Below the pieces are notes generated by a model. It saw nothing but the letters and a program-made list of their open reading frames with translations, had not been told where the DNA came from and did not search any database. DNA of 64,000 nt from an uncultured Gammaproteobacteria bacterium (GTDB taxonomy: Bacteria; Pseudomonadota; Gammaproteobacteria; Natronospirales; JAJUFS01): NCBI GenBank assembly GCA_964599565.1, contig CAZRFE010000004.1:3680-67679 (forward strand). Direction: 5' to 3'. Positions 14,259 through 34,100 of the stretch are shown piece after piece; position 1 is the first letter of the stretch; each line of letters starts with the position of its first letter. Both the position numbers and the translations under genes were made by a program.

Positions 14259-14265
14259 CACCCCG

Positions 14266-15954: not shown

Positions 15955-17310
15955 ATGTCCGGATCCGCTTCTTTCATCCAGGCCTCCATCGCACAACAGA
16001 ACCGCGCCGCCGTCGTACCGCTGCCGGCGGCGCTTCCCGATCTCGATACCGCGCACATCGGTGTGGTCGGACTCGGCTACGTCGGCCTGCCGCTCGCCGC
16101 TGCGTTCGGCCGGCGCTTTCCAACGACGGGTTATGACATCAACCCCGCGCGCATCATGGAACTGGAGGGCGGCATCGACCGCACGCGCGAGATCAGCGGC
16201 GAGGAACTTGCCGGCAGCGAGAAGCTCGGTTTCTCAACTGAGGTCGGCAAGCTCGCGGAATGCAATGTCTACATCGTTTCCGTGCCGACGCCGGTCGACC
16301 GTCACAAGCGTCCCGACCTTCGTCCGCTGGAAGCGGCGTCACGCACCGTCGGCAGCGTGCTGAAGCGCGGCGATGTGGTGGTGTACGAATCCACCGTGTA
16401 TCCCGGTGCAACCGAGGAAGTCTGCGTACCGGTGCTCGAGGAAGTTTCCGAGCTTGTCTTCAACCGCGATTTCTACGTCGGCTACAGCCCGGAGCGCATC
16501 AATCCCGGCGATCATGCGCATCGCGTCGAGGACATCGTGAAGGTGACGTCCGGTTCGACGCCGGATGCCGCCGAGTTCGTGGACCGTCTCTACCGCAGCG
16601 TCATTGCCGCGGGCACGCACCGCACCGAAACCATCCGCGAGGCGGAAGCCGCGAAGGTCATCGAGAACACGCAGCGCGATGTGAACATCGCGCTCGTCAA
16701 CGAACTTGCCACGCTGTTCAACCGTCTCGGCATCGACACCGCCAACGTGCTCGCCGCAGCCGGCAGCAAGTGGAACTTCCTGCCGTTCCGGCCCGGGCTT
16801 GTCGGCGGTCACTGCATCGGCGTCGATCCCTACTACCTCACGCACAAGGCGAAGGAAGTCGGCTTTCTCCCGGAAGTGATTCTCTCGGGACGAAGGATCA
16901 ACGACGAGATGGGCAGCTACATCGCAAACCGCGTCGTGAAGCTCATGACGCAGCGGCGCATCCATGTCGTCGGCGCGCGCATTCTCGTGCTCGGCCTCAC
17001 CTTCAAGGAGAACTGTCCGGACATCCGCAACACGCGCGTCACGGACATCATCGATGAGTTCCGCAACTACCACGCGGATGTCGATGTGCACGATCCCTGG
17101 GTGCATCCCGACGATGCGGCCCGCCTTGATGGCGTGAAGCTCGTCGAACGGCCGGATGCGAACGCCTATGACGCGGTGATTCTCGCCGTCGCGCACCGCG
17201 AATTCGCGGAACTCTCGCGCGATGCGCTGCTTTCGCTGTGCAAGCCGGAGCACGTCATCTACGACGTGAAGAACGCGCTGCCACGCGACGTCGTCACCGA
17301 GCGCCTGTAA
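15955..17310 (+). CDS. nucleotide-sugar 6-dehydrogenase (TviB/WbpO/CapL-like)
   Basis: ATG at 15955 preceded by [26 protein letters not shown] Rossmann fold, catalytic region [12 protein letters not shown], ~451 aa. Confidence 0.85.
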
Positions 17311-19214: not shown

Positions 19215-19228
19215 GGGGTTGCATGCAT

Positions 19229-19262
19229 GAAAAAACGAGGCCTTTCGGCCTCGTTTTTTTTT
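19229..19262. terminator. bidirectional rho-independent terminator between convergent units
   Basis: AAAAAA-CGAGGCC-TTTC-GGCCTCG-TTTTTTTTTT. A perfect 7-bp stem with an A-tract on one side and a T-tract on the other. Confidence 0.75.
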
Positions 19263-19265
19263 GGA

Positions 19266-19580
19266 TCAACGAGAGGCGCGATGCCCGCCGCGGTTCTCCG
19301 CGGCGGCATCGTCTTCATCGTCGTCGGGCGCCAGTTCCTGCCACGTTGCGGGAAAGCGATGCGTGTCGCCCGCTTCGTAGAGAAACAGGTTCATTTCACG
19401 TGCTGCCTTGCGCCCCGATGACGCAAGGCCGGCGAGCGCATTGAACCAGAGAATTCTCTCCTGCCCTTTTGCAGGAACGTCGGCGGTCATTTCGAAGATG
19501 GAATCAAGTGTGCCGAAGGTGGCGTCAGAGGCGAGAAAGAGATTGAAATCGACGGATGCGTTTACGCTTTTTCTGCTCAT
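19266..19580 (-). CDS. hypothetical 104-aa protein with an acidic C-terminus, downstream of the NRPS genes
   Basis: ORF with a GC3-rich second half and a terminator immediately downstream. I recognise no motif. A 260-bp lower-GC spacer separates it from the NRPS stop. Confidence 0.45.
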   Translation of the reverse strand: MSRKSVNASVDFNLFLASDATFGTLDSIFEMTADVPAKGQERILWFNALAGLASSGRKAAREMNLFLYEAGDTHRFPATWQELAPDDDEDDAAAENRGGHRASR

Positions 19581-19840
19581 GGTGATTTCCTTGTTCTGCT
19601 GCTAAGCGTGACAAATGGATGCCGGGACGTTTAGCAGTCGGTAAGGAGACCCGATGGACTTATTCCCCGAAGGTGTTTTATTCGTCCACGCCCGGCAGAG
19701 ACCGATTTCCTTATCGAGGCTGCTACACCCCGCCTCATTCCTGAGGCGAGCGAAGTCTAGGAACTCCACTTCCGGCACAATATCGGGAAATCACGGAATT
19801 GGCATGAACAACGGCGCGGTCCATGCGCCGGAAGCGACCG

Positions 19841-22800
19841 CTATCCGCTCCTGCCGAGCAGCGCGTTCACCATGGTCCGCCACGACAAACCGCTGCTGCG
19901 CGGTTTTGCATCCGCCGCGACACTGCCCGCCTCCTCCACCTGGCGATCGCAGGTTGCGGCGATCTCGCCGAGCGAATTGAGCACGAGCAGTCGCGGCCGT
20001 ATGGTGCAGCCGAGCTCCGTTGCAATGCGCGCGACGACTTTCATCGAGGAGAGCGAGTGTCCGCCGAGGTCGAAGAAGTTGTCGTTGCGGCTGACGGTAT
20101 CGATGCCGAGGATGTCCTGCCAGATGGCGGCGATGCGCCGCTCGGTGTCCGTCTGCGGCGGGACGTGCGCGCTGCGCGGCGCGGCGGTGGGTGACGGCAA
20201 TGCGGCGCGGTTGATCTTGCCGCTCGCGGTGAGCGGCATGGCATCGAGCGCGACGAAGTGCTGCGGGATCATGTACGCGGGCAGCTGCGCGCGAAGATGC
20301 GATTTCAGTTCATCGATGCTCGCGCGCTTGCCGGCATGCAGCGTGAGGTACGCGATGAGCCGCTGGTCGTCGGCGGCGTCGAACGTGCGCACGATGACGA
20401 CGGCGCGCGCGACGGCAGGATGCGCTTCGAGCAGCGCTTCGATCTCGCCAGGCTCGATGCGGTGCCCGCGCAGCTTGATCTGGAAGTCGACGCGGCCGAG
20501 GTATTCGAGTGCGCCGTTCGCGTTGAACCGCACGCGGTCGCCGGTGCGGTAGAGCCGTGCATTCGCCTTGCCGCTGAACGGATCCGCAACGAAGCGTTCG
20601 CGCGTGAGATCCGCGCGGTTGAGATAGCCGAGCGTCACGCCATCGCCGCCGATGTAAAGCTCGCCGGGCACGCCGGGCGGTGTCGGCTGGCCGGACGCAT
20701 CGAGCACGTACACCTGCGTGTTCGCGATCGGGCGGCCGATCGGCACGGGATCGTCGTCGATGCCAAGGGCGTGCGCGGTGGACCACACCGTCGTTTCCGT
20801 CGGGCCGTAGAGGTTCCAGGCGTGTTCCGTGCACGCGATGAGTTCGCGCGCGAGCGGCGCCGGCAGTGCTTCGCCGCCGCTGATCGCGCACAGTTCCGCG
20901 TCGCCCTTCCAGCCGGCGGCGAGCAGCATCTGCCAGGTCGCGGGCGTGGCCTGCATGACGGTCGGCGGCTGGTGCGTGATCCATTCGCACAATGCCGTTC
21001 CGTCCTGCGCGATGTCGCGCGGCACGATGTCCGCATGCGCGCCGATGCAAAGCGGCAGCCACAGCTCGAGCACGGCAATGTCGAACGTGAGCGTGGTGAT
21101 CGCGAGGAAGCGGTCGTTCGAGGTGACGTCGAGCGTTGCCTGCATCGCGCGCAGGAAGTTCGCGACTGCACCGTGCGGCACGATCACGCCTTTCGGCTTG
21201 CCCGTCGATCCCGAGGTGTAGATCACGTACGCGGGATCGTCGGGCGTGTGCGTGATGTGGTTCGGCGAACGCGTCGTGACGCTCGCGTCGGCGGCCGGGT
21301 GCCGGGTCGCCGGCGCGGTCTCCCATTGCCCTTCGGCCGACCGGTCCTGCTGCCGCTCGCGCGACAGCAATGACGCGAGATCAACGGCGCGCCCGCCGAA
21401 GTCGGACAGCGCGTCGTGTTCCGTACCGCGCAGGTTCGTGATGACGGTGCCGGCGTTCGCATCGTCGAGCATCCACTGCAGGCGATCCACCGGTGCATCG
21501 GGATCGAGCGGCAGGTAGGCCGCACCGGCGCGCAGGACGCCGAGCAGTACCGCGGGCAGATCGATGTTTCGCGCAAGCAGCACGCCGACGATGTCGCCGC
21601 GTGCGACACCGCGCGCTGTAAGTGCCGCTGCCACTGCACCCGCCCGGCGTCCGAGCGCGCCGTAATCCATCTGCTCGCCCTGGCTTGAGATGGCAAGCGC
21701 GGAGGGCATCGCTGCAATCTGTTCATCGATCAGCGCATCCACCGTCGTTGCCGGCCAGTCATGTTCCGCACCGCGGGTCCATGCCGACAGCTGCTCGCCA
21801 TCGTGCGCGGACAGCAGCGGTAGCGTGCTGATCGGCTGCGTGGCGTCTTCCGTCACGGCGGCGAGCACGCGCTCGAAGGTCTTCAGCATGCGCGTTGCGG
21901 TGGAGGCCGCGAACAGGTCGGTGCTGTATTCCATGTCGATGTTCATGCCGTCATCGCTTTCGCGGCACCAGAAGGCGATATCCGTCTGCGCGGTGCTGCG
22001 CGGCGGCGTGAGCGGTTCGAACGCGAGGTTGCCGGCGACGAGGCTTTCCTCGGCATCCGGCACCAGTGTCACGAGCGCCTGGAAGATCGGCGTGCGCTGC
22101 GTGTCGCGCGGCGGCTGCACGGCATCGATCACGCGGCTGAACGGCAGCGACTGGTTGTCGAGCGCTTCAAGGCAACGGTCGCGCACCTGCCGGACGAGAT
22201 CGCTGAACGGCGCACTGCGCTCGATATGCATGCGCAGCGCGACGGGATTCATGAGCAGGCCGACGACGCCGTCGCGGTCTGCCTCGTCGCGGTTCGCCAT
22301 CGGCATGCCGAGCACGATCTCGTTCTGCCCGCCGAGGCCGGACAACGTGGCCGCGATGGTCGCCGTCAGCAGCATGAAGCCGGATGCGCGCATGTCGCGC
22401 GCCGCCGCTTCGAGCGTTGCGAGCGTCTCGCGCGGGATGTGCAGGCGAAGCACGTCGCCCTTCCCGCTCGGGAATTCGGGGCGCTCGAAATCCGCGGGAA
22501 GTTCAAGCACGGGCAGCGTGCCGGAGAGTCGGTTCTTCCAGTACGAAAGCTGTCTCTGCGCGGTGCGGCTTTCCAGCTGCTGCGCTTCCCGGCGCTGGAT
22601 GTCCGTGTACTGCGCATGCAGCGCCTGCAGCCTTGGCGCGCGCTGCTCGACGTGCGCGGCGTAGAGTTCCACGAGTTCGCGCTTCAGGATCGCCATCGAG
22701 GTGCCGTCCGCGATGATGTGATCGACGACGAACAGCAGCACATGATCGTCGGGCGCGAGCCGGAACAGCCGGCAGCGGTACAGCGGCGCGTGCATGGCGC

Positions 22801-23347
22801 CGAAGGGTTTTTCCAGCGCGGCTGCGAGCATCGCATGCAGCGCGTTTTCATCGCCGCCGGGAACGGTTTCCGGTTCAAGGTGCGTTTCGCCGACCGATGC
22901 GATGCGCTGCACGGGAGCGGCGTCATGCTCGACGATGACGGTGCGCAGCGCGGCATGGCGCTGCAGGAGATCGTGCAGTGCGGATTCCAGCGCGCGGACA
23001 TCGAGTGCGCCGTGCATGCGAAGCGTGATCTCAAGGTTGAACACGCCGCGCTCGGGCTGCTCGCTTTCGAGATACCACATGGATTGCTGCATCTCGGACA
23101 ACGCGTGCAGGCCGGCAGGCAGATCGCCGAACACCGGGGCTTCGGCGCCGGCGTCATCCAGCGTGGCGTCTTCGCGCAACGCTTCCAGTATCTCCTGCTT
23201 CTGTGCGCGCAGCTCCGCCTGGAGCGTTTCATCGATCACGCCGCGCGGCGCGGTGAGTACAAGACGGTCGTTCTGCTCGCGCAGGTCCACGCCGCGGCGG
23301 CGCAGTTCCCGGACCAGTTCGCGCGCGTTCATGTGCTGTCCGTTCAT
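19841..23347 (-). CDS. NRPS module (here NRPS3): N-terminal TubC-like docking domain - C - A(Gly-like) - T; no release domain
   Basis: 1168 aa. ELVRELRRRGVDLREQNDRLVLTAPRGVI (docking), VVDHIIADGTS (C3), YTSGSTGKPKG, NLYGPTE, GELYIGG, FFDLGGHSL. ATGA overlap with the upstream gene at 23344-23347. Confidence 0.95.
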   Translation of the reverse strand: MNGQHMNARELVRELRRRGVDLREQNDRLVLTAPRGVIDETLQAELRAQKQEILEALREDATLDDAGAEAPVFGDLPAGLHALSEMQQSMWYLESEQPERGVFNLEITLRMHGALDVRALESALHDLLQRHAALRTVIVEHDAAPVQRIASVGETHLEPETVPGGDENALHAMLAAALEKPFGAMHAPLYRCRLFRLAPDDHVLLFVVDHIIADGTSMAILKRELVELYAAHVEQRAPRLQALHAQYTDIQRREAQQLESRTAQRQLSYWKNRLSGTLPVLELPADFERPEFPSGKGDVLRLHIPRETLATLEAAARDMRASGFMLLTATIAATLSGLGGQNEIVLGMPMANRDEADRDGVVGLLMNPVALRMHIERSAPFSDLVRQVRDRCLEALDNQSLPFSRVIDAVQPPRDTQRTPIFQALVTLVPDAEESLVAGNLAFEPLTPPRSTAQTDIAFWCRESDDGMNIDMEYSTDLFAASTATRMLKTFERVLAAVTEDATQPISTLPLLSAHDGEQLSAWTRGAEHDWPATTVDALIDEQIAAMPSALAISSQGEQMDYGALGRRAGAVAAALTARGVARGDIVGVLLARNIDLPAVLLGVLRAGAAYLPLDPDAPVDRLQWMLDDANAGTVITNLRGTEHDALSDFGGRAVDLASLLSRERQQDRSAEGQWETAPATRHPAADASVTTRSPNHITHTPDDPAYVIYTSGSTGKPKGVIVPHGAVANFLRAMQATLDVTSNDRFLAITTLTFDIAVLELWLPLCIGAHADIVPRDIAQDGTALCEWITHQPPTVMQATPATWQMLLAAGWKGDAELCAISGGEALPAPLARELIACTEHAWNLYGPTETTVWSTAHALGIDDDPVPIGRPIANTQVYVLDASGQPTPPGVPGELYIGGDGVTLGYLNRADLTRERFVADPFSGKANARLYRTGDRVRFNANGALEYLGRVDFQIKLRGHRIEPGEIEALLEAHPAVARAVVIVRTFDAADDQRLIAYLTLHAGKRASIDELKSHLRAQLPAYMIPQHFVALDAMPLTASGKINRAALPSPTAAPRSAHVPPQTDTERRIAAIWQDILGIDTVSRNDNFFDLGGHSLSSMKVVARIATELGCTIRPRLLVLNSLGEIAATCDRQVEEAGSVAADAKPRSSGLSWRTMVNALLGRSG
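20052..21835. repeat. direct repeat copy 1 (1784 bp, apparently 100% identical to 23501..25284)
   Basis: All six-frame ORFs in this span recur identically at an offset of +3449 (e.g. 20258..21373 = 23707..24822; 20310..21326 = 23759..24775). Boundaries were read directly from the sequence. Confidence 0.92.
23168..23335 (-). other. NRPS3 N-terminal TubC_N-type (beta-hairpin) docking domain, approximate
   Basis: ARELVRELRRRGVDLREQNDRLVLTAPRGVIDETLQAELRAQKQEILEAL matches the L..L...GV.L....D.L...AP.G.L...L...K..L pattern. Confidence 0.6.
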
Positions 23348-26300
23348 AGCTCGACGATCTCCTGCATGTCATGGTTGCCGGCGATGCGCGCATCGACATC
23401 TTCCGCGAGATCGATCAGCGCCGGTGTTTCGAAGAGGGTCGCGATGGGCAGCGCGCAGCCGAGCTGCTCGCGCAGCACGGTCACGAAGCGCGCGGCGAGC
23501 AGCGAGTGTCCGCCGAGGTCGAAGAAGTTGTCGTTGCGGCTGACGGTATCGATGCCGAGGATGTCCTGCCAGATGGCGGCGATGCGCCGCTCGGTGTCCG
23601 TCTGCGGCGGGACGTGCGCGCTGCGCGGCGCGGCGGTGGGTGACGGCAATGCGGCGCGGTTGATCTTGCCGCTCGCGGTGAGCGGCATGGCATCGAGCGC
23701 GACGAAGTGCTGCGGGATCATGTACGCGGGCAGCTGCGCGCGAAGATGCGATTTCAGTTCATCGATGCTCGCGCGCTTGCCGGCATGCAGCGTGAGGTAC
23801 GCGATGAGCCGCTGGTCGTCGGCGGCGTCGAACGTGCGCACGATGACGACGGCGCGCGCGACGGCAGGATGCGCTTCGAGCAGCGCTTCGATCTCGCCAG
23901 GCTCGATGCGGTGCCCGCGCAGCTTGATCTGGAAGTCGACGCGGCCGAGGTATTCGAGTGCGCCGTTCGCGTTGAACCGCACGCGGTCGCCGGTGCGGTA
24001 GAGCCGTGCATTCGCCTTGCCGCTGAACGGATCCGCAACGAAGCGTTCGCGCGTGAGATCCGCGCGGTTGAGATAGCCGAGCGTCACGCCATCGCCGCCG
24101 ATGTAAAGCTCGCCGGGCACGCCGGGCGGTGTCGGCTGGCCGGACGCATCGAGCACGTACACCTGCGTGTTCGCGATCGGGCGGCCGATCGGCACGGGAT
24201 CGTCGTCGATGCCAAGGGCGTGCGCGGTGGACCACACCGTCGTTTCCGTCGGGCCGTAGAGGTTCCAGGCGTGTTCCGTGCACGCGATGAGTTCGCGCGC
24301 GAGCGGCGCCGGCAGTGCTTCGCCGCCGCTGATCGCGCACAGTTCCGCGTCGCCCTTCCAGCCGGCGGCGAGCAGCATCTGCCAGGTCGCGGGCGTGGCC
24401 TGCATGACGGTCGGCGGCTGGTGCGTGATCCATTCGCACAATGCCGTTCCGTCCTGCGCGATGTCGCGCGGCACGATGTCCGCATGCGCGCCGATGCAAA
24501 GCGGCAGCCACAGCTCGAGCACGGCAATGTCGAACGTGAGCGTGGTGATCGCGAGGAAGCGGTCGTTCGAGGTGACGTCGAGCGTTGCCTGCATCGCGCG
24601 CAGGAAGTTCGCGACTGCACCGTGCGGCACGATCACGCCTTTCGGCTTGCCCGTCGATCCCGAGGTGTAGATCACGTACGCGGGATCGTCGGGCGTGTGC
24701 GTGATGTGGTTCGGCGAACGCGTCGTGACGCTCGCGTCGGCGGCCGGGTGCCGGGTCGCCGGCGCGGTCTCCCATTGCCCTTCGGCCGACCGGTCCTGCT
24801 GCCGCTCGCGCGACAGCAATGACGCGAGATCAACGGCGCGCCCGCCGAAGTCGGACAGCGCGTCGTGTTCCGTACCGCGCAGGTTCGTGATGACGGTGCC
24901 GGCGTTCGCATCGTCGAGCATCCACTGCAGGCGATCCACCGGTGCATCGGGATCGAGCGGCAGGTAGGCCGCACCGGCGCGCAGGACGCCGAGCAGTACC
25001 GCGGGCAGATCGATGTTTCGCGCAAGCAGCACGCCGACGATGTCGCCGCGTGCGACACCGCGCGCTGTAAGTGCCGCTGCCACTGCACCCGCCCGGCGTC
25101 CGAGCGCGCCGTAATCCATCTGCTCGCCCTGGCTTGAGATGGCAAGCGCGGAGGGCATCGCTGCAATCTGTTCATCGATCAGCGCATCCACCGTCGTTGC
25201 CGGCCAGTCATGTTCCGCACCGCGGGTCCATGCCGACAGCTGCTCGCCATCGTGCGCGGACAGCAGCGGTAGCGTGCTGATCGGTGCGTCGTTTCCTGCA
25301 AGGCGCGCCATGAACTGTTCGAGTTCGCGAAACCGCCGCTGCATGCCTTGCGGCGTGAACAGGCTCGCGTCGTACGTGCATTCGAAGAGCACGCCGTCCT
25401 TGCCATCGACGGCATTGATGAACATCTCGAAGTTCTCGAACCGGCGCGGCGTGTTCTCGATGCGCGCGCGCAGGCCATGGAACCCGGGCACGTCATTGCG
25501 GTGATCGATGTTGAGAATCACCTGCACGAGCGGCACGATCGCGGGATCGCGCGGCACGCGCAGCGCATGCACGATGCGTCCCATCGAGCAGTCGCGGTGC
25601 TCCCATGCATCCGACATCGTTTCGCCGATGTGATCGAGATGCGCATCGAAACCTGCATCCGGCGCAAGCCGGCTGCGCAACGGAAGCAGGCTGACGCAAT
25701 GGCCGACGAGACCTTCGAGACCCTCCTCGACCTGCCCTGCCGCCGGCACGCCGAGAATGAGATCGTCCTGCCCTGTCAGCCGGTGCAGGTAGGCGGCGAC
25801 GGCCGCGGCGATCACGGTGAAACCTGTCACGCCGCGCTTCATGCCGCGCGCACGAAGCTTCTGCATGACTTCCGCGGGAATGCGATGGCGAAGATAGTGC
25901 GCGGGAAATGCGCGACGGCCGGGACGCGGGAAATCCTTCGGCAGTTCGAGATTCGATGGCGCATCGGCGAGCGCGCGCTGCCACGCAGCTTCCTGGTCGC
26001 GGCGCGTATCCGCATCCACCTCCGCCTGGCGCTCCGCATACGCCGCGAACGATGGCGCGGGTTCCGAATCGTCCGCTTCACCGCGCACCGCGGCGCTGTA
26101 GAGCTGCGCGAGTTCATCGAACAGCACGCTGAACGACCAGCCATCGCAGACGGTGTGATGCGCGGTGAGCAGCACGGCATGGCTGTAGTCGTCGATGTGA
26201 ACGATGCGGCAGCGAAACAGCGGACCGTTGATGAGGTCGAACGGCGCGGTCACCTCATGCGCGCGCAATGCATCCAGCGTCGTGTCGCTGTGGCGAAGAT

Positions 26301-26628
26301 CCACGGGCGTGACATCAAGCGCGATCTCGCGCGCGATGCACAGCGCCTGCCCGTCCGGGCCGAATGTCGCGCGCAGCGCGTCGTGCCGCTGTGCAAGCCT
26401 GGATAGCGCGTGCGCCATGGCGCCGATATCGAGATGGCCGTGCAGTTCAAGGCAGCGGGATTCGTTGTACGCGCACGATGCCTCGGGGCTGAGCGATGCG
26501 GCCGCCCAGATCTCCCGCTGCGGTTCCGTGGCGGGCACGCTCGCCAGCAGGTCGGCGGCGAACGGGTTGAAGTCGACGGGCGCCGACTCCTTATATATAT
26601 GTTCAAGACTCCTGTCGGCAGGATTCAT
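23344..26628 (-). CDS. NRPS module (here NRPS2): C - A(Gly-like) - T
   Basis: 1094 aa. The N-terminus VDFNPFA...VPATEPQREIW is a C-domain type seen after PKS/aminotransferase modules. AHHTVCDGWS (C3). A-T identical to NRPS3. RBS GAGGGAG upstream of ATG 26628. Confidence 0.95.
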   Translation of the reverse strand: MNPADRSLEHIYKESAPVDFNPFAADLLASVPATEPQREIWAAASLSPEASCAYNESRCLELHGHLDIGAMAHALSRLAQRHDALRATFGPDGQALCIAREIALDVTPVDLRHSDTTLDALRAHEVTAPFDLINGPLFRCRIVHIDDYSHAVLLTAHHTVCDGWSFSVLFDELAQLYSAAVRGEADDSEPAPSFAAYAERQAEVDADTRRDQEAAWQRALADAPSNLELPKDFPRPGRRAFPAHYLRHRIPAEVMQKLRARGMKRGVTGFTVIAAAVAAYLHRLTGQDDLILGVPAAGQVEEGLEGLVGHCVSLLPLRSRLAPDAGFDAHLDHIGETMSDAWEHRDCSMGRIVHALRVPRDPAIVPLVQVILNIDHRNDVPGFHGLRARIENTPRRFENFEMFINAVDGKDGVLFECTYDASLFTPQGMQRRFRELEQFMARLAGNDAPISTLPLLSAHDGEQLSAWTRGAEHDWPATTVDALIDEQIAAMPSALAISSQGEQMDYGALGRRAGAVAAALTARGVARGDIVGVLLARNIDLPAVLLGVLRAGAAYLPLDPDAPVDRLQWMLDDANAGTVITNLRGTEHDALSDFGGRAVDLASLLSRERQQDRSAEGQWETAPATRHPAADASVTTRSPNHITHTPDDPAYVIYTSGSTGKPKGVIVPHGAVANFLRAMQATLDVTSNDRFLAITTLTFDIAVLELWLPLCIGAHADIVPRDIAQDGTALCEWITHQPPTVMQATPATWQMLLAAGWKGDAELCAISGGEALPAPLARELIACTEHAWNLYGPTETTVWSTAHALGIDDDPVPIGRPIANTQVYVLDASGQPTPPGVPGELYIGGDGVTLGYLNRADLTRERFVADPFSGKANARLYRTGDRVRFNANGALEYLGRVDFQIKLRGHRIEPGEIEALLEAHPAVARAVVIVRTFDAADDQRLIAYLTLHAGKRASIDELKSHLRAQLPAYMIPQHFVALDAMPLTASGKINRAALPSPTAAPRSAHVPPQTDTERRIAAIWQDILGIDTVSRNDNFFDLGGHSLLAARFVTVLREQLGCALPIATLFETPALIDLAEDVDARIAGNHDMQEIVEL
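23501..25284. repeat. direct repeat copy 2 (1784 bp)
   Basis: See copy 1. Encodes PISTLPLL...FFDLGGHS, the complete A domain plus the T domain up to the Ppant serine, in both NRPS genes. Confidence 0.92.
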
Positions 26629-26639: not shown

Positions 26640-29600
26640 TCAGTTTGCGCGGCTTTCGCCGACGCCAAGCTCCCGGTAGCGGCCCGGACGATCAGGATCC
26701 GGCACGAACCAGCCGGGTTGCCCGTCGGGCCGCCGGCCAAGGCGCGCACCCGGCGCAGGCGGCGCGCCCATCGTGGCGCCCGCCGGTGTTCTCGCCTTCG
26801 CGGGCTTCTCTTGCGCAACCGCCTGCGCTGCATCCGGAAAGAAACCGGCCGCGTGCATCTCGGCGAGCGCTTCCTGGAATACCTTGCTCACCTGCGCGAG
26901 ATCCGCATCGCTGTGCGCGGTGGTCAGGAAACACGGCTCGCCTTCGATCACGTGAACGCCGCCCGCGCGAAGCCTGGCTTCGAGAAGCCCGCGGCACGGC
27001 AGGCGCGCATCGACATCGATGAAGAACCATGACGAGAAACTGCGGATATCGACGGGCGCGTTGACGGCCTTCGCGTGCTGTTCCAGCTCGCATGCAAGTC
27101 TCGCGGTGCGCTCGTTCAACGTGCGCTGCAGCGACGGGCCGGATTCGCGAAGCTGCGCGAGCGTTGCTTCCGCCGCGGCGAGCGCGAGCGAATGCTGCGA
27201 GCCTGATGACGCATCGGCGCTGCACATCGCGTTCGCATCGCCCGCGAGCACGCCGAGCGGCATGCCACCGCCGACGGTCGCGCCATAGCATGAAAGATCC
27301 GCGCGCGTCCCGCAGATGCCGGGCGCGCCCGCGGGATGGACACGAAAGCCGCAGGCGATTTCATCGAACACCAGCAACGCGCCGCATTCGCGCGTTGCCG
27401 CGCGCAGCGCGGCGATGAAATCCGGCGCATAGCGTTCCGGGTGCAGGCTCTGCACGGGCTCGACGAGAACGGCCGCGAGCGTTTCGCGAAGTTCACGAAC
27501 GCGTTGCAGGGCGCGTTCGCTGCCGTAATCGAGAACCTCGATGCCGTCATCCGCTTCCCCATGCCCCCAAATGCGCGCGGACTCATCCGCAAACGTCACA
27601 ACCTTTCGCCGCTGCGTGACCGTGCGGGCGGCGTCGATCGCCGCGTGCAGCGCTTCCGTTCCGGTGGCATGGAAACTGACACGCTCGAAACCGGTCAGCG
27701 CCTGCACGAGGCGCGCAACGCGTCCGGCCAGCGGTGTCTGCAGCCCCGCCTCCGCGCCGCGCTTCATCTGCTGTCGCACAGCGTCGTTGATTGCGGGATT
27801 CGCATGACCGAGCAGGATCGCGCCGTGCGCGTTGACGAGGTCGATGTATCCGTTGCCGTCGATGTCCTGGATTCTCGAACCGGACGAGGATTCGATGACG
27901 ATCGGGTAGGCAATATCCGCGAGCATTGCATCGCCCGGTGCAGGCGCAATGCCGGCGAGATGCGCACGATGCGTGCGCGCAAACGCGCGCGAGCCGGATG
28001 TCCGCCAGGCATGGCGCCGGACGACATCGCGCACGTAATCCTTTCCTGCCGCGGAAAGTTCCTGTGCAGGCGCGCTGCGTGCATCCGTGACGGCACGCGG
28101 GGTGCTTGCAGATGCGTTCCGTGAAATTTCCTCATCCAGCAGCGCCGCGATCGCCGCGAGCGTGTTGTGTTCCACGAGCAGCTGCCGGAAGCGAAGATCA
28201 AGCCCGAAGCGCTTCTTCAGCGCCTGGCTGAACTGCGTCAGGAACAGCGAATCGAGCCCGAGCTGCGCAAACGGCACGGCGTGCATGGCAGGTCCGGTCT
28301 CGAGCCCGGAGACATCCGCAAGGAGTTCACCGAGTTGCTCGATCATCGGGCGTTCATCGACGCGCGCAACCTGCGGCGCGCTTTGCGGGCTGGCAGGTCC
28401 TGGTGATGCATCCGTTCGTGATGCCGCGGTGAGGGGAACGTCGCTCGCCGGCCGGCTGTCGAGCCAGTGGCGCGTGCGTTCGAACCGGTACGTGGGCGCG
28501 GGAACGCGACGCCGCGCGTTGTCATGCAGCGCCGTCCAGTCGATGGAAACGCCGTTCGTCCAGAGTCGTCCCGCGGCATCGAGCATCGCCACGCGCTCGT
28601 CGCTTCCTTCACGGTGCCTGCCGAGCGACGCGATGACCTGTACATCCGCGTCATCCGCGAAGGTCTGCGCGGCAAATGTCGACGCCGCCGTTCCAGGACC
28701 GCACTCGACGAATACAACATGTTCGCGGGATTCGCCCCGCGCCGACTGCAGCGCCTGCATGAAGCGCACGGGCTCGCGCAACTGGCGCGACCAGTACGCG
28801 GGATCCGTCGCCTGCGCCGCATCGAGCGGCGCACCGGTGACGGTCGAGACGATGTCGATGGCGGGCGGTGAAAGCGCGAGCTTGCCGACCGTTGTCTCGA
28901 ACGCCGCTGCAACGGGATCCATCATCGCGGAATGAAACGCGTGCGAGGTGCGCAGCGTGCTGCATGCCAAGCCGGCCTTCTCGAGACGCGACTTCGTGCG
29001 TGCGATCGCGGCATCGTCTCCCGACAGCACGCAGAAGCCCGGCGCATTCAGCGCCGCGATGGCAACGTCATCCGCAAGATGTTCGCGAACCGCGTCTTCC
29101 GCGGCGCGCACCGAAAGCATGGAGCCCGGCGGCTGCTCCTGCATCAGGCGTGCGCGTTCCGCGACCAGGCGTACGGCATCCTCGATACGGAATATTCCCG
29201 CGAGCGTTGCGGCGACGAACTCGCCGATGCTGTGGCCGACGAGCGCATCCGGCCTGACGCCGCGCTGCATCCACAGCCTTGCGATCGCATACTCGGCTGC
29301 GAACAGCGCGGGCTGCGTGTAGCGGGTTTCATCCAGCAGTTCCGTTGCGTTGTCCGTGCTGCCGAACATGATCTCGCGCAGGTCGAAATCGAGATCGTCC
29401 GCGAGCGCATCCGCGCAGCGATCGATGATGTCGCGTACCAGCGGTTCGGCGCGATAAAGCGGCTCGCACATGCCGGGACGCTGCGAACCCTGCCCGGGAA
29501 ACAGGAACACCACCCGAGGCCGTTCCTTTGCATTGCCCGTTCGCATGCGCGCGCCGCTGTTCCCTTTCAGGAGCGCTGCGGCTTCCGCGCGCGAACCCGC

Positions 29601-31106
29601 GGCGACGGCGAGGCGTTTCGCAAACGCCTGGCGGCCGCGCTGCAGTGTCCAGGCGATGTCCTGGAACGAATGCACCGGTTTTGTCTCAAGGAATTCCGCG
29701 AGCGCGGTACGCGCCCGCTCGAGCGCCGCGTCCGTCTTCGCAGAAAGCACGATGAGTTGCGGCTGCCCGCCCTCTTCGCGCTTCGCAACCGGCGGCGGCG
29801 CCTCGAGTACGACGTGCGCGTTGGTTCCGCCGAGCCCGAACGAACTCACGCCCGCGAACCGCGGCGCATCCGCCGGCCACTCGCGCACGCGGTCGATGAC
29901 GTGGAACGGACTTTCCGCGAGATGAAGCTCGGGGTTGGGTGATGTGAAATGCAGCGTGGCGGGAATTCTTCCCTCGCGAAGCGCAAGCGTGGCCTTGATG
30001 AGTCCCGCAATGCCGGACGCCGCATCCAGGTGTCCGATGTTTCCTTTCACGGAACCGATGCCGCAGTAGCCGCGGCGATTCGTGTGCGTACGGAATGCGC
30101 GCGTGAGTGCTGCGATCTCGACGGGATCGCCGAGCGACGTGCCGGTACCGTGCGCTTCGATGTAACCGATGTCGCCGGCATCGACGCCCGCGACTTCCTG
30201 CGCCATCTGCACGACTTCCGCCTGGCCCTGCACGCCGGGCGCGGTGAAGCTCACCTTGCCCGCGCCGTCGTTGTTCATCGCCGCGCCGCGTATCACGGCG
30301 TGAATGGTGTCGTTGTCCGCGAGCGCGTCGGAGAGCCGCTTGAGCACGACGACGCCGCCGCCGCTGCTGAACACCGTGCCTTTTGCGCCGGCATCGAACG
30401 GCCGGCAGCGGCCATCGGGCGAATGGATGCTGCCTTCCTGGTAAAGGTATCCGCGCTGCGGCGGACAGATGACGGACACGCCGCCGGCGAGCGCGATATC
30501 GCACTGGTAATCCAGCAGGCTGTTGAATGCATGGCAGACCGCGACCAGCGAGGTGGAACACGCGGTACTGACCGTGACGCAGGGACCGCGCAGGTCGAGC
30601 TTGTAGGCGACGCGTGTGGCGAGATAGTCCTTCTCGTTTGCGACCATCGCGGGAATCTCGCCGAAGCTCGCAAGCAGCGCCGGGTGCTGCGCCACGTGCG
30701 CGGCGAAATAGGTGTTGTAGCTCATGCCCGCGAACACGCCCGTCAGTGCATCGTGCGTGCCCGCGGCGTAGCCTGCGTCTTCGAGCGCGCGCCAGCACAT
30801 CTCGAGAAACGTGCGCTGCTGCGGGTCGAGCATTTCGGCTTCGCGCGGTGCGATGCCGAAGAATTCCGCATCGAAGCGGTCGGCTTCCGGCATCAGTCCG
30901 CGCACGCGCACGTAGTCGCGCTGCGTACGCAGCGATTGCGGCACGGAAGGATCGAGGTCCGCGTCCGCGAAACGGTCAAGCGTTTCGCGTCCTTCCAGCA
31001 GGTTCTGCCAGTACGTATCGATATCCGCCGCACCGGGAAACCTGCCGTCCATGCCGATGATGGCGATGGCTTCGGAGTCGCGCGCGTTGTCCTGGTCTGC
31101 TTGCAT
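26640..31106 (-). CDS. type I PKS module: KS - AT(malonyl-type) - ACP - class-III aminotransferase-like domain
   Basis: The track ORF is over-extended to 31412. The real start is ATG 31106 (MQADQDNARDSEAIAIIGMDGRFPGA), 2 nt after the NRPS1 stop. KS: TACSTS, EAHGTGT, KGNIGH. AT: GHSIGE, HAFHS. ACP: LGLDSL. AMT: DEIACGFR, GGGMPLG. Confidence 0.92.
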   Translation of the reverse strand: MQADQDNARDSEAIAIIGMDGRFPGAADIDTYWQNLLEGRETLDRFADADLDPSVPQSLRTQRDYVRVRGLMPEADRFDAEFFGIAPREAEMLDPQQRTFLEMCWRALEDAGYAAGTHDALTGVFAGMSYNTYFAAHVAQHPALLASFGEIPAMVANEKDYLATRVAYKLDLRGPCVTVSTACSTSLVAVCHAFNSLLDYQCDIALAGGVSVICPPQRGYLYQEGSIHSPDGRCRPFDAGAKGTVFSSGGGVVVLKRLSDALADNDTIHAVIRGAAMNNDGAGKVSFTAPGVQGQAEVVQMAQEVAGVDAGDIGYIEAHGTGTSLGDPVEIAALTRAFRTHTNRRGYCGIGSVKGNIGHLDAASGIAGLIKATLALREGRIPATLHFTSPNPELHLAESPFHVIDRVREWPADAPRFAGVSSFGLGGTNAHVVLEAPPPVAKREEGGQPQLIVLSAKTDAALERARTALAEFLETKPVHSFQDIAWTLQRGRQAFAKRLAVAAGSRAEAAALLKGNSGARMRTGNAKERPRVVFLFPGQGSQRPGMCEPLYRAEPLVRDIIDRCADALADDLDFDLREIMFGSTDNATELLDETRYTQPALFAAEYAIARLWMQRGVRPDALVGHSIGEFVAATLAGIFRIEDAVRLVAERARLMQEQPPGSMLSVRAAEDAVREHLADDVAIAALNAPGFCVLSGDDAAIARTKSRLEKAGLACSTLRTSHAFHSAMMDPVAAAFETTVGKLALSPPAIDIVSTVTGAPLDAAQATDPAYWSRQLREPVRFMQALQSARGESREHVVFVECGPGTAASTFAAQTFADDADVQVIASLGRHREGSDERVAMLDAAGRLWTNGVSIDWTALHDNARRRVPAPTYRFERTRHWLDSRPASDVPLTAASRTDASPGPASPQSAPQVARVDERPMIEQLGELLADVSGLETGPAMHAVPFAQLGLDSLFLTQFSQALKKRFGLDLRFRQLLVEHNTLAAIAALLDEEISRNASASTPRAVTDARSAPAQELSAAGKDYVRDVVRRHAWRTSGSRAFARTHRAHLAGIAPAPGDAMLADIAYPIVIESSSGSRIQDIDGNGYIDLVNAHGAILLGHANPAINDAVRQQMKRGAEAGLQTPLAGRVARLVQALTGFERVSFHATGTEALHAAIDAARTVTQRRKVVTFADESARIWGHGEADDGIEVLDYGSERALQRVRELRETLAAVLVEPVQSLHPERYAPDFIAALRAATRECGALLVFDEIACGFRVHPAGAPGICGTRADLSCYGATVGGGMPLGVLAGDANAMCSADASSGSQHSLALAAAEATLAQLRESGPSLQRTLNERTARLACELEQHAKAVNAPVDIRSFSSWFFIDVDARLPCRGLLEARLRAGGVHVIEGEPCFLTTAHSDADLAQVSKVFQEALAEMHAAGFFPDAAQAVAQEKPAKARTPAGATMGAPPAPGARLGRRPDGQPGWFVPDPDRPGRYRELGVGESRAN
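26832..27929 (-). other. class-III (GSA/HemL-like) aminotransferase domain with Ala at the Schiff-base Lys position (approximate)
   Basis: DIDGNGYIDL..., VFDEIACGFR, DLSCYGATVGGGMPLG. The GCG codon at 27279-27281 sits where HemL-type enzymes have the PLP lysine (DLTCLGKIIGGGMPVG). Confidence 0.7.
28137..28349 (-). other. PKS ACP domain (approximate)
   Basis: FAQLGLDSLFLTQF, with the Ppant Ser at about aa 953. Confidence 0.8.
28617..29513 (-). other. PKS acyltransferase domain, malonyl-CoA-type motifs (approximate)
   Basis: FLFPGQGSQ, LVGHSIGEF, SHAFHS. Confidence 0.8.
29802..31073 (-). other. PKS ketosynthase domain (approximate)
   Basis: Cys-His-His triad motifs are present (VSTACSTSLVAV, EAHGTGTSLGDP, SVKGNIGHLDAASG). 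Confidence 0.85.
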
Positions 31107-31108
31107 GT

Positions 31109-34100
31109 TCAGCGTTCGAACCTCCCCGTCTGCGTGGATGGCCGCCGGCGCCGCTGCATCGCTGCGCGCCGTACGGCGCCGCGACGTCCCGCATCGCGCA
31201 GGCGTTCCTCGGAATCGTCCGGTTCGCCGTGCGCGAGCCAGTGCGCGAGCGCGGCGATGGTCGGATGCTGGAACAGCCTGACGATGGGGAATGCGCGCTT
31301 GAGCTTCCTGCTCAGGCGTTCGTGAATCTCGATGAGTGCGACAGACTGCGCGCCGACGTCGAAGAAGTTCCGGTCGATATCGAAATTCTCGACGCCCAGC
31401 ACATCGCGGCATACCGATGCAACAAGCGCGGTCATGTCATCGCCGTTGCCGTCATCATCGGCGGCAATCGCGTCACCCGTTGCCGCCGCCTCTTCCTGCA
31501 ACGCGGTATCTGTCGCGCGGCGCATCGGTTTCTTATCCGCATCCAGCACGGTCGTTTCCGTGCGGTTCTGCACGGAGACATGATTGATGACCGTGGCAAC
31601 GCGCACGTCCGGCGTGCGCGTGATCGTGCGCAGTATGTCGATGAGATCGTTGCCGAGCGCTTCGACCGCGGCGTCGTCAAGGAGCGCCTTGTCGTGGAAG
31701 AACTCGATGCGGTGCGCAGGGCCCGGCATGATCGCGACGGTGAGCGGGTAGTTGGTGCGCACGCCGGCGGAGAACTCGCGCACCTTGATGCGCTCGCCCC
31801 AGCGGCGCGTCGCATCGCCGGTCGCGTAGTTCTGCAGAACGAGCAATGCATCGAACAGTCGCGCGCCCGCCGGGCTGCCCGACCATTCATGCACTTCAAG
31901 CGGCGAGACATTCTGGTAGTGATTCACGTCCGCCTGCGTGGCGCGCAGCGACGACAGCCACTCATCGACGCGCTGCTCGGGATTGATGCGCACGCGCACG
32001 GGAAGATCGTTCAGGAACGGACCTACAGTGTTCGCGGCATCCGCAACACCTGCCGTGCGCCCGGAGAATGCAACGCCGAGCGTGACATCGAAACGCAGGG
32101 TGATGCCGGAAAGCAGCAGCGCCCACGCGGCCTGGTACACGACGCCGGGCGTGAGCCTGAGCTTGCGCGCAAGCTGCATGACACCGGCGCCGAGTTCCTC
32201 GGGCAGCGCGATGCTTGCATGCCCTGCATCGTGCGGTCCTGCGCGGCCGTCATCCCTGCGCCGGCTGCGCGTGATCAGCGTGCGCTGCGCACGTCCGCCG
32301 AGATGCTCGCGCCAGAACGCCGCGTACTCGGTGAGATCGCGGTTCATCAGCCACGCGATGTAACTGCGGTACGAGCCGGGCGCATCGAGCACGGGTTCGC
32401 GTCCGGCAACCTGCGCGTCGTGCAGTTCGCCGAGTTCCTGCGCGAGTATCGGCCACGACCAGCCATCCACCAGCGCCTGGTGATGGCTCCAGACGAGCAT
32501 CCACCGGTCATCGCCCGCGCGAATCAGCGTCACGCGCGTCAGCGGTGCGACATGCAGCTCGAACCCCTGCCTCCGGTCCGCATCGAGAAATTCCTTCAGC
32601 CGCTGCTGCTGCGTGGTCTCGTCCAGCAACCGCCAGTCCGTCTTCTGCAGGCGGAACTCGACGTGGCGAAGCACGACCTGGTGCGGCTCGCCAAGACCGC
32701 GATCGACGAACACCGTGCGCAGCGCATCGTGGCGGCGCAGGAGTTCCCGCCATCCCGCCTCGAACGCACCTTCATCGATGCTTCCCTGCAGATGGAACAC
32801 CCATTGATCGAAACCCACGTCCCTGTCGGTGCCGGACAGCGCGTGATGGAGTCGCTGGATCGGCGAGAGCGGCAGGATTTCCTCGACGTTCTCGAGCGCA
32901 ACGGGAAACGCATCGAGCTCTTCCTGCGAGAGACGCGCAAGCGGGAAATCCACGGGCGAGCGCACGATGCCGTTGCGCGTGCGGCAGTGACGGATGATTT
33001 CATGCAGCGCATCGGCGTAATGGCCGGCAAGCGCGCCGACATCCGCTTCGGGAATGGCTTTCGGGCTGAAGCGGAACTCGAATTCCATCCGGTCATCGTG
33101 CACGGCCGCGGTGACCGTCAGCGCGTGCGCAAGGTGATTCTCCGCGCCGCGCTCGCGGCCGGTATCCTCGAAGACATGCTGGAACATGCCGCTTGCCAGT
33201 GCGCGCTCGAACTGGCCGCGGTAGTTGAACAGCACCGGCGCACGCTGTGCCTGCGCGCGGCCGAATGCGACGGCGCCGTTTGCGCGCAGGTAACGCAGCA
33301 TTCCCCAGCCCGCACCCTGGTGCGGCGCGCTTCGCATGCGCGTCTTTACATCGCAGATCAGGCGCGCAGGATTGCCGGCATGCGACTGGTCAAGCGCAAC
33401 CGGCTGCAGTACCGAGAACCACCCCACCGTGCCGGATACATCGAGTTCGCCGAAATTGTCGCTGCGGCCATGCCGCTGCACATCCACGCGCAACTGTCCG
33501 GCATGCGGCCATTTCACGGCGACCGCGCGCGACAGTGCGGCGAGCAGGAGTTCGTGCGTTTCCGTTCCATAGGCGTCATGGATGCCGCCGAGCAGCGCGG
33601 CGGTCGCCGGCGCTTCGAGCGTGATGCGCACCGTGCGCGCATCACGCTCCCTGCCGGGATCGTGCACGGCATCCGCAAGCGCGCTGTCATCCAGCGCATC
33701 GATCACCTGCTCCCAGTACGCATGCTCGCTGCCGATGAGCGCGGACTGAGCCTGGCGTTCAAGATGCGCCGCCCATCCGGCGTAGCTGATCGAACGCCGC
33801 ACGAACGTGGCGTCATGACCTTCCTCCAGCGCGCGGTATGCCGCATCGAGATCCTTGAGGATGATCGTCCACGATGCGGCATCGACGGCAAGCCGGTGGA
33901 TGACGATGAGCAGTCGCGCACCGTCTTCCAGCCCGCCGGTGAAGTGCGCGGCACGCACGAGCAGGCCGGCACTCAGGCTGAGCGATTCCTGGATTTCCTG
34001 CGTGATGAGTCCGACCGCTTCGCGGCGTTCCGCTTCATCGAGGTGATCAAGCTCGATGCGCGAGAACTCCAGCGCATCGGCCGGCTCGACGGGCTTCGAC

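What the first reader, a model, noticed from the sequence alone, without database searches (positions are those of the whole stretch)
26832..27929. PKS-embedded aminotransferase domain lacks the PLP Schiff-base lysine
The segment RADLSCYGATVGGGMPLG aligns residue for residue with the HemL/GSA-aminomutase active-site stretch DLTCLGKIIGGGMPVG. The Lys position is Ala (GCG at 27279-27281). The Asp of DEIACGFR is retained, while the following G-T-x-x-G-N-P region is also degenerate (SSGSQHSLA). Without the internal aldimine lysine the domain is either inactive, leaving a beta-keto intermediate, or works non-canonically, for example as a PMP-only or structural/gatekeeping domain.
Basis: seen in the sequence. 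Interest (0 to 1): 0.6.

Follow-up and report, generated by a model that had tools for sequence, protein, structure and literature searches.

The report
Dead aminotransferase domain in hybrid PKS
A polyketide-synthase module in this soil bacterium carries an aminotransferase domain that has lost its catalytic lysine and two active-site loops but is still kept as a folded piece, so the pathway most likely makes a keto product rather than an amino product; this is a clear but fairly ordinary case of a dead domain in an assembly line.

Summary
The gene lies on the minus strand (26640-31106) and encodes KS-AT-ACP-AMT. Every alignment puts Ala (GCG, 27279-27281) where MycA, HemL and about 97% of homologous domains have the Schiff-base Lys.

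The damage goes beyond that one residue:
- A deletion of about 25 residues removes the YHG/lid loop.
- A deletion of about 19 residues removes the AMT-specific loop before the AGT motif.
- Only 92 of 138 near-invariant family positions survive.

It is not a sequencing error. Lys to Ala needs at least two base changes, and both deletions are in frame. Three relatives with the same gene order, two of them in the same genus, carry Asn, Ser or Arg at this site and show their own active-site decay.

Other orthologous clusters keep Lys. In those, the AMT is the slowest-evolving domain (dN/dS 0.05-0.12). In the Lys-less lineages it is the fastest (0.24-0.41), though still below 1.

The AlphaFold model keeps the MycA-AMT fold (TM 0.86). 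KS, AT and ACP motifs are intact.

Best reading: a catalytically dead AMT kept as scaffold or docking element, so the beta-keto group is passed on. Lys-less embedded PLP domains were already noted in 2013. This is a new member of a known kind, of modest interest.

The scan has seen Lys-less PLP pseudo-enzymes before on other DNA.

The parts
26640..31106 (-). Hybrid PKS gene, KS-AT-ACP-AMT* (1488 aa from the ATG at 31106; the open frame runs on to 31412)
   Evidence: Pfam domains. An identical 1488-aa database protein, P0002, fixes the start 2 nt after the NRPS1 stop.
29946..31073 (-). KS domain with an intact Cys-His-His triad (TACSTS, HGTGT, NIGH)
28551..29510 (-). AT domain with GHSIG and the malonyl-type HAFH motif
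28137..28337 (-). ACP with LGLDSL (phosphopantetheine-attachment Ser present)
26823..27962 (-). Degenerate class-III aminotransferase (AMT*) domain, about 380 residues against about 430 in intact homologues
   Evidence: Pfam PF00202 at 116 bits. Best solved relative is MycA AMT 6KFM, E=5e-56. AF2 model pLDDT 85, Foldseek TM 0.86 to 6KFM. 92 of 138 near-invariant positions kept.
27279..27281 (-). GCG = Ala at the Schiff-base lysine position (residue 1378 of the long ORF, AMT residue 228)
27363..27365 (-). Retained Asp of VFDE, the residue that binds the pyridine nitrogen of PLP
   Evidence: Invariant column D200. Role of the residue from PMC3870968.
27522..27593 (-). FADESARIWGHGEADDGIEVLDYG: site of the ~25-residue deletion that removes the DYHG stacking-Tyr motif and the following active-site loop
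   Evidence: Gap against MycA (167-204 against query 123-138) and against GSAM. Family alignments. Model pLDDT is about 55 here.
27183..27224 (-). CSAD|ASSGSQHSLA: site of the ~19-residue deletion of the AMT-specific loop (DGGxWxYGDDSxPEVGVTFF). The AGT motif reads ASS.
   Evidence: The insertion is described for the family in PMC3870968.
27651..27668 (-). ATGTEA: the phosphate-binding Gly-Thr motif, still present in the window copy
26832..26933 (-). Well-conserved C-terminal part of the small domain (CFLTTAHSDADL ... EMHAAGFF), a candidate docking or scaffold surface
   Evidence: Conservation in the Lys-less group equals that in the Lys-keeping group over AMT residues 256-375.
31109..37438 (-). 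Upstream NRPS1: C*-A(Thr-like)-T-E*-C-T, which supplies the chain to the KS
23344..26628 (-). Downstream NRPS, C-A(Gly-like)-T, which receives the acyl chain from the ACP of the AMT* module
19841..23347 (-). Last NRPS, TubC-type dock-C-A(Gly-like)-T, which ends without a TE, R or terminal C domain

Best explanation
The C-terminal domain of this KS-AT-ACP-AMT module descends from MycA-type beta-aminotransferase domains but is now a pseudo-enzyme.

Shown:
- It lacks the Schiff-base and proton-shuttle Lys (Ala instead).
- It lacks the YHG/lid loop and the AMT-specific loop next to the phosphate-binding Thr.
- A third of the family's near-invariant positions are lost.
- Decay is concentrated on the cofactor site, while the N-terminal part and the C-terminal small domain stay conserved.
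- The predicted fold is intact and dN/dS stays below 1.
- The loss is shared by the syntenic clusters of this genus, with a different residue in each.
- More distant orthologous clusters with the same gene content keep a strongly constrained, apparently active AMT.

Inferred:
- KS and AT still extend the Thr-derived chain from NRPS1 with malonate.
- The resulting beta-ketoacyl-S-ACP is not transaminated.
- It passes with its 3-oxo group to the C domain of the next NRPS and is joined to Gly-Gly.
- The dead domain is kept because the module needs it as a dimerising scaffold and/or as the docking partner for the downstream NRPS.
- Lys-keeping relatives should therefore make the 3-amino congener and this genus the 3-oxo congener.
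For: - Ala lies opposite the catalytic Lys in phmmer alignments to MycA AMT and GSAM and in MAFFT alignments of 17 and 49 domains.
- Two in-frame deletions fall at active-site loops.
- The window keeps 92 of 138 near-invariant columns. Forty-four diverse homologues keep 127-138, and the Lys-keeping orthologue L009 keeps 128.
- Syntenic relatives lack Lys with different codons: AAC (Asn), AGC (Ser) and AGG (Arg), against GCG here. Two of them have their own loop deletions.
- The AMT branch is 1-2.5 times the KS-AT branch in Lys-less lineages and 0.3-0.8 times in Lys-keeping ones.
- dN/dS of the AMT is 0.24-0.41 in Lys-less pairs and 0.05-0.12 in Lys-keeping pairs, while KS stays at about 0.07-0.15 in both.
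- Conservation drops to a third only at AMT residues 120-135 and 245-255.
- The AF2 model has pLDDT 85 and pTM 0.85, and its best structural match is MycA AMT at TM 0.86.
- KS, AT and ACP catalytic motifs are intact.
- The only other class-III aminotransferases in the genome match BioA, HemL, EctB and, weakly, ArgD models, and none lies in the cluster.
Against: - No biochemical or metabolite data exist. Inactivity is inferred from the established requirement for the Lys in fold-type-I transaminases.
- The window copy still has the pyridine-N Asp, the ATGTEA phosphate motif and a Ser in place of the cross-subunit Thr, so non-covalent PLP/PMP binding cannot be excluded.
- dS is near saturation (pS 0.5-0.6), so the dN/dS values are approximate.
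- Monophyly of the Lys-less group has only weak support (71/63), so the number of loss events is open.
- The scaffold or docking role is an inference.
- The assembly line has other odd features (C* and E* without catalytic His, no TE), so its overall logic is not understood.
Confidence: 0.8

Rival explanations
1. The Lys-less domain still does chemistry in a non-canonical way. Examples: it binds PMP and performs a slow or single-turnover amination, or it uses the cofactor for another reaction, with water or another residue as the base.
For: Asp200, ATGTEA and EPVQ are retained in the window copy. dN/dS is still below 1. Lys-less PMP enzymes exist in other fold-type-I families, such as ColD and E1 dehydratases with His in place of Lys (from my own knowledge).
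Against: The residue at the Lys site differs in each relative (A, N, S, R), so no replacement catalyst is conserved. The phosphate motif is lost in L008 (TSAAA) and L018 (TEADA), and the YHG/lid loop is deleted in three of the four. Decay is concentrated exactly on the cofactor site. Ala cannot act as a base.
Confidence: 0.07
2. The domain is dead, but the beta-keto group is still aminated in trans by a free-standing aminotransferase, so the product keeps its beta-amino group.
For: The genome has four other class-III aminotransferases. The genome is only about 94% complete, so another could be missing.
Against: Three of the four match the housekeeping or ectoine enzymes BioA, HemL and EctB above their curated cut-offs, and the fourth matches ArgD models only weakly. 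None lies in or next to the cluster. The syntenic clusters in relatives add no aminotransferase gene either. Acting on an ACP-tethered intermediate normally needs a dedicated partner.
Confidence: 0.06
3. The whole assembly line is a decaying, non-functional relic, and the AMT is simply the most eroded part.
For: Several catalytic motifs are missing: the N-terminal C domain reads RRALLDWRS, the E-like domain reads HRLAVDAAS, and there is no TE.
Against: About 5,860 codons in four coupled genes contain no stop or frameshift, despite 20-45% protein divergence from relatives. KS, AT, ACP, A, T and the elongating C domains keep their motifs. KS dN/dS is 0.09-0.15. The C*, E* and TE-less features are shared with the Lys-keeping orthologue L009, so they are family traits and not recent decay.
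Confidence: 0.05
4. The Ala and the deletions are sequencing or assembly artefacts of a metagenome-assembled genome.
For: The source is a 195-contig MAG. Reads could not be inspected.
Against: AAG/AAA to GCG needs at least two substitutions. Both deletions are multiples of three and keep a 1488-codon frame open. An identical protein is on record in the database (P0002). Independently assembled relatives show the same kind of loss.
Confidence: 0.01

Closest known systems
AMT domain of mycosubtilin synthase MycA (Bacillus subtilis; PDB 6KFM and 6KFU), and likewise the AMT domains of the iturin and microcystin (McyE) lines
   Same: It has the same fold and ancestry: best sequence match E=5e-56 and best structural match TM 0.86. 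It sits in the same place, directly after the ACP of a ketide-extending module and before an NRPS C domain.
   Different: MycA has the Schiff-base Lys (YGKIIGGGQPLG) and aminates the beta-keto thioester with Gln as donor (PMC3870968). The window domain has Ala there and is about 40 residues shorter at two active-site loops, so it fails the catalytic definition.
Orthologous KS-AT-ACP-AMT proteins of the same cluster type that keep the Lys (P0004/L009, P0006-P0008, P0011; uncultured Gammaproteobacteria)
   Same: The gene order is the same: GGDEF-EAL, LuxR-type regulator, C*-A-T-E*-C-T, KS-AT-ACP-AMT, C-A-T, dock-C-A-T, PPTase. KS identity is 74-77% for P0004 and P0006-P0008, and 61% for P0011.
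   Different: Their AMT keeps Lys, YHG, both loops and 128 of 138 near-invariant positions, and it evolves under strong constraint (dN/dS 0.05-0.12).
[quoted passage not shown] 2013 (PMC3870968): Thr in Methylobacterium and Methyloversatilis CP-ABHy-PLP-FMO proteins, Val in Sorangium cellulosum A1YBQ7
   Same: These are Aminotran_3-type domains inside assembly-line proteins with the Schiff-base Lys replaced.
   Different: They have different architectures (after a hydrolase domain, with an FMO) and are not in a KS-AT-ACP-AMT | C-A-T setting. No evolutionary comparison with active orthologues was made for them, and their function was left open.
Inactive tailoring domains of modular synthases (KR0, DH0, ER0, MT0, E0) and pseudo-enzymes in general
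   Same: A homologous domain has lost catalytic residues, is kept in the polypeptide, and leaves the intermediate unmodified at that step (general knowledge of the field).
   Different: The domain type is an aminotransferase. Here natural active and dead versions of the same cluster are available side by side.
Glutamate-1-semialdehyde 2,1-aminomutase HemL
   Same: It is the closest primary-metabolism family: NCBIfam hit at 175 bits, and the active-site stretch aligns residue for residue.
   Different: The score is far below the family cut-off (398). The genome has its own true HemL with DLTTLGKIIGGGMPVG on another contig.

Membership tests
MycA-type PKS-embedded beta-aminotransferase (AMT) domain (Pfam Aminotran_3, GSA-like) | Class-III (fold-type I) aminotransferase fold | tested here: met
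   PF00202 at 116 bits against a cut-off of 30.5. AF2 pLDDT 85 and Foldseek TM 0.86 to 6KFM.
MycA-type PKS-embedded beta-aminotransferase (AMT) domain (Pfam Aminotran_3, GSA-like) | Location after the ACP of a ketide-extending module and before an NRPS condensation domain | tested here: met
   KS-AT-ACP-AMT followed after 11 nt by a C-A-T gene.
MycA-type PKS-embedded beta-aminotransferase (AMT) domain (Pfam Aminotran_3, GSA-like) | Schiff-base / proton-transfer lysine in the YGK(V/I)xGGG motif | tested here: not met
   Ala (GCG, 27279-27281) in every alignment. Lys is present in 79 of 80 and in 112 of 117 homologues.
MycA-type PKS-embedded beta-aminotransferase (AMT) domain (Pfam Aminotran_3, GSA-like) | Asp that binds the pyridine nitrogen of PLP (FDE motif) | tested here: met
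   VFDEIACGFR; the column is invariant.
MycA-type PKS-embedded beta-aminotransferase (AMT) domain (Pfam Aminotran_3, GSA-like) | Ring-stacking Tyr of the (D/C)YHG motif and the following active-site loop | tested here: not met
   The motif reads DESARIWGHG and about 25 residues are missing. Role of the Tyr from PMC3870968.
MycA-type PKS-embedded beta-aminotransferase (AMT) domain (Pfam Aminotran_3, GSA-like) | Phosphate-binding contacts (TGSEA motif; Thr of AGT from the partner subunit) | tested here: inconclusive
   ATGTEA is kept. AGT reads ASS (Thr to Ser) next to a 19-residue deletion. The relatives L008 and L018 have lost TGSEA.
MycA-type PKS-embedded beta-aminotransferase (AMT) domain (Pfam Aminotran_3, GSA-like) | Family-specific surface insertion before the AGT motif | tested here: not met
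   Deleted in the window. The insertion is described in PMC3870968.
MycA-type PKS-embedded beta-aminotransferase (AMT) domain (Pfam Aminotran_3, GSA-like) | Transamination of an ACP-bound beta-keto thioester | not testable with these tools
   Needs an enzyme assay or product analysis.
Catalytically dead (pseudo-enzyme) domain retained in an assembly line | Loss of essential catalytic residues while active homologues exist | tested here: met
   active-looking orthologues
Catalytically dead (pseudo-enzyme) domain retained in an assembly line | Fold retained and sequence still under purifying selection | tested here: met
   Model. dN/dS 0.24-0.41, below 1 but about four times that of active orthologues (dS near saturation, so approximate). 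Regions away from the active site are as conserved as in active orthologues.
Lys-less PMP-dependent enzymes of the ColD/E1 kind | A conserved alternative catalytic residue (His) at the Lys position | tested here: not met
   A, N, S and R in four relatives. This is also a different subfamily (DegT/DnrJ/EryC1; from my own knowledge).

The most novel reading that the evidence does not exclude
The dead AMT may be more than a leftover. It could be an indispensable scaffold or docking module, and its inactivation could be an adaptive switch that turned a 3-amino product into a 3-oxo product in this genus. One same-genus genome (G002) appears to carry both a Lys-less and a Lys-keeping version of the cluster. 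Alternatively, the domain may still bind PLP/PMP as a non-catalytic ligand that gates chain transfer to the next module.
Probability: 0.15. Interest if true: 0.5.

Novelty: new member of a known kind. Interest (0 to 1): 0.3.

Why it matters
Genome-mining tools read 'KS-AT-ACP-AMT' as 'beta-amino acid unit'. In this genus that prediction would be wrong by one functional group.

The case also offers a natural matched pair: the same orphan cluster exists with an active-looking AMT and with a dead one. This could be used to test two things: what the AMT contributes structurally to a hybrid PKS-NRPS interface, and how downstream C domains cope with beta-keto against beta-amino donors.

Beyond that it is an expected kind of event, domain death in a modular synthase. 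It does not open a new question.

Tried and rejected
- The + strand reading of the stated coordinates gives only stops. The gene is on the minus strand.
- I looked for a Lys shifted by alignment error. There is none within the motif in three independent alignments.
- Sequencing error is rejected on codon distance, in-frame deletions and relatives.
- For a trans-acting aminotransferase, the genome's other class-III enzymes match BioA, HemL, EctB and, weakly, ArgD models, and they lie elsewhere.
- Neofunctionalisation is rejected because no common replacement residue or motif is shared by the Lys-less copies.
- Literature searches for an 'inactive/nonfunctional aminotransferase domain' in PKS found no description. 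Only Milano et al. 2013 mention Lys-less embedded PLP domains.
- An automatic read-out of A-domain specificity codes by MAFFT was unreliable at three of the ten positions. Only the clear positions (DFW...MVHK, DIL...LVWK) are used, as Thr-like and Gly-like.
- No closer relative than about 54-61% AMT identity exists in the 5.8-billion-protein collection or in same-genus genomes, so within-species polymorphism could not be examined.
Full report
**What is there**

The stated interval lies inside a minus-strand ORF (26640..31412). The + strand reading of the interval is only stops. An identical 1488-residue protein on record (P0002) starts at the ATG at 31106, two bases after the stop of the upstream NRPS gene.

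Pfam gives KS (114-489), KS-AT linker, AT (635-954), ACP (1026-1092) and Aminotran_3 in the numbering of the long ORF. The aminotransferase (AMT) domain spans residues 1151-1530, which is 26823-27962.

**The observation**

RADLSCYGATVGGGMPLG is residues 1370-1387, and the Ala codon GCG is at 27279-27281.

The best solved relative is the AMT domain of mycosubtilin synthase MycA (6KFM, E=5e-56). There the stretch reads ADLVTYGKIIGGGQPLG. In GSA aminomutase 4E77 it reads DLTCLGKIIGGGMPVG. In both, Ala faces the Schiff-base Lys.

The same placement results from MAFFT alignments with 16 and with 48 homologous domains. The Asp of FDE is retained.

Lys occupies this position in 112 of 117 motif hits among the top database homologues. 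It also occupies it in 79 of the 80 best species-representative genomes out of 552 relatives found. The single exception there belongs to the window's own genus.

- Against MycA and the family consensus, about 25 residues are missing after FAD. The family has (G)DYHGxFDEVLV...APGIP, and the window has DESARIWGHGEADD.
- About 19 residues are missing before the AGT motif. The family has LDGGxWxYGDDSxPEVGVTFFAGTFVRHP, and the window has CSAD|ASSGSQHS.
- According to Milano et al. 2013 (PMC3870968), the Tyr of YHG stacks on the PLP ring. The Thr of AGT, contributed by the partner subunit, binds the phosphate and the substrate. The loop before it is an AMT-family-specific insertion.
- Of 138 columns that are at least 95% conserved in 44 diverse AMT domains (each of which keeps 127-138), the window keeps 92, has 16 deleted and 30 changed.
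- Still present are ATGTEA (phosphate motif), EPVQ and the FDE Asp.

**Not an artefact**

AAG/AAA to GCG needs at least two substitutions. Both deletions are in frame in a 1488-codon gene. Independently assembled relatives show the same phenomenon (below).

**Relatives**

The cluster is syntenic in uncultured Gammaproteobacteria. The order is PAS-GGDEF-EAL, LuxR-type response regulator, NRPS1 (about 2100 aa), KS-AT-ACP-AMT, C-A-T, TubC-dock-C-A-T and a convergent PPTase.

Two same-genus genomes carry it:
- G001 (=P0003/L007) has Asn (AAC) at the Lys site.
- G002 (=P0005/L008) has Ser (AGC), a GG deletion in the motif and its own deletion of the YHG loop.

A further contig (P0010/L018) has Arg (AGG), its own loop deletions and TEADA in place of TGSEA.

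More distant orthologues (P0004/L009, P0006-8, P0011) keep Lys, YHG, TGSEA, AGT and both loops. L009 keeps 128 of the 138 near-invariant positions.

On a tree built from the KS-to-ACP columns only, the four Lys-less proteins form one clade, but support is weak (71/63). One loss is therefore compatible with the data but not proven.

**Selection**

- In Lys-keeping pairs the AMT is as conserved as the KS and more conserved than the AT. In Lys-less pairs it is the least conserved domain.
- Terminal branch lengths of AMT relative to KS-AT are 0.3-0.8 in Lys-keeping lineages and 1-2.5 in Lys-less ones. The window is 0.60 against 0.31.
- Nei-Gojobori dN/dS of the AMT is 0.05-0.12 in Lys-keeping pairs and 0.24-0.41 in Lys-less pairs. 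KS stays at 0.07-0.15 in both. dS is about 1, so these values are approximate.
- The drop in conservation is local. AMT residues 120-135 and 245-255 fall to about a third of the conservation in the Lys-keeping group. Residues 1-89 and 256-375 are equally conserved in both groups.

This is the signature of a dead active site in a domain that is still needed as a folded body.

**Structure**

An AlphaFold2 model built with a 49-sequence alignment has mean pLDDT 85 and pTM 0.85. Confidence is low only at the termini and at the two deletion sites. Foldseek ranks MycA AMT first (6KFU and 6KFM, TM 0.86), followed by GSA aminomutases.

**Rest of the module and the cluster**

- KS (TACSTS, HGTGT, NIGH), AT (GHSIG, malonyl-type HAFH) and ACP (LGLDSL) are intact.
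- NRPS1 is C*-A-T-E*-C-T. The first C-like domain (RRALLDWRS) and the E-like domain (HRLAVDAAS) lack the catalytic His.
- The same degenerate motifs occur in the Lys-keeping orthologue L009 (ARHLLDGRS, HQLAADFAS), so they are family traits and not part of the AMT decay.
- A-domain codes are Thr-like (DFW...MVHK) and twice Gly-like (DIL...LVWK).
- No TE, R or terminal C domain is present.
- The genome's other class-III aminotransferases match BioA, HemL, EctB and, only weakly, ArgD models. They lie on other contigs.

**Mechanism proposed**

Shown: loss of the Lys and of the loops; focused decay of the cofactor site; a retained fold; residual purifying selection; intact KS, AT and ACP.

Inferred: the module still adds a malonate unit. 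The 3-oxoacyl-S-ACP is not aminated, because the Lys both anchors PLP and carries out the 1,3-proton shift in fold-type-I transaminases (established enzymology). The downstream C domain then joins the keto-acyl chain to Gly, and another Gly follows. The dead domain is kept as a dimerising scaffold and/or docking partner.

**Rivals**

- Non-canonical catalysis is unlikely. There are four different residues at the site, and cofactor motifs have been lost lineage by lineage.
- Trans-amination has no candidate gene.
- Whole-cluster decay is contradicted by about 5,860 open codons and low KS dN/dS.
- Artefact is contradicted by codon distance and by the relatives.

**Comparison with what is known**

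By descent this is a MycA-type AMT, but it fails that family's catalytic definition. It behaves like the well-known inactive tailoring domains of modular synthases.

Lys-less embedded Aminotran_3 domains were already mentioned by Milano et al. 2013, in other architectures and without functional analysis. Searches for a described inactive AMT domain in a KS-AT-ACP-AMT module found nothing in the library.

Earlier notes of this scan list several Lys-less PLP pseudo-enzymes on other DNA, one of them related to a PKS AMT.

**Verdict**

This is a new member of a known kind and of modest interest. Its main uses are to correct product prediction and to serve as a natural active/dead pair for experiments.

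Noticed in passing
window 36995-37040 and 33870-33900 (minus strand); L009:3429-10004: The N-terminal C-like domain (RRALLDWRS) and the E-like domain (HRLAVDAAS) of NRPS1 lack the catalytic His. The same degenerate motifs occur in the Lys-keeping orthologue (ARHLLDGRS, HQLAADFAS) and in the other relatives (HQLAIDAAS). They are therefore old family features, independent of the AMT decay.
   Followed up: partly
window 19841-20060 and 19215-19840: The assembly line ends in a bare T domain. No TE, R or terminal C domain and no hydrolase gene lies between the last NRPS and the convergent PPTase. The same is true in the relatives (L008, L009).
   Followed up: partly
G002:C185 (L015/L017) = P0009: The same-genus genome G002 carries a second KS-AT-ACP-AMT copy that keeps the Lys. 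However, it has FNE instead of FDE (the pyridine-N Asp is lost), TAESEA instead of TGSEA, and ADT instead of AGT. This may be another AMT on its way to inactivity, or it may come from a contaminant contig (genome contamination about 5%).
   Followed up: partly
protein P0020 (JGI metagenome, 1588 aa): Outside the clade, an otherwise intact AMT domain (TGSEA, SYHG, FDE and AGT all present) has Arg at the Lys position (YGRVAGGGMPIG). This is either an independent recent loss or a single-base error.
   Followed up: no
L007:16895-19774 (genome G001): In the same-genus relative G001, the gene after the last NRPS is a giant protein of more than 2850 aa with SpvB, TcdB_toxin_midN and YD-shell Pfam hits. 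The other clusters have the PPTase at this position.
   Followed up: no
window 20258-21373 and 23707-24822: The two Gly-type modules give shadow ORFs of identical length and identical specificity read-outs.
   Followed up: no
window 2-17310: A large exopolysaccharide locus flanks the cluster. It holds two asparagine-synthase-like amidotransferases, GT4 and GT2 glycosyltransferases, a polysaccharide deacetylase, a Wza-type export protein, a priming sugar transferase, UDP-glucose dehydrogenase and an epimerase. The PPTase lies directly after the epimerase gene.
   Followed up: no
window 31107-31412: The PKS open frame extends 102 codons upstream of the likely start and overlaps the end of NRPS1. 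Automatic ORF calls would over-extend the gene. The likely start, ATG at 31106, lies 2 nt after the NRPS1 stop.
   Followed up: yes
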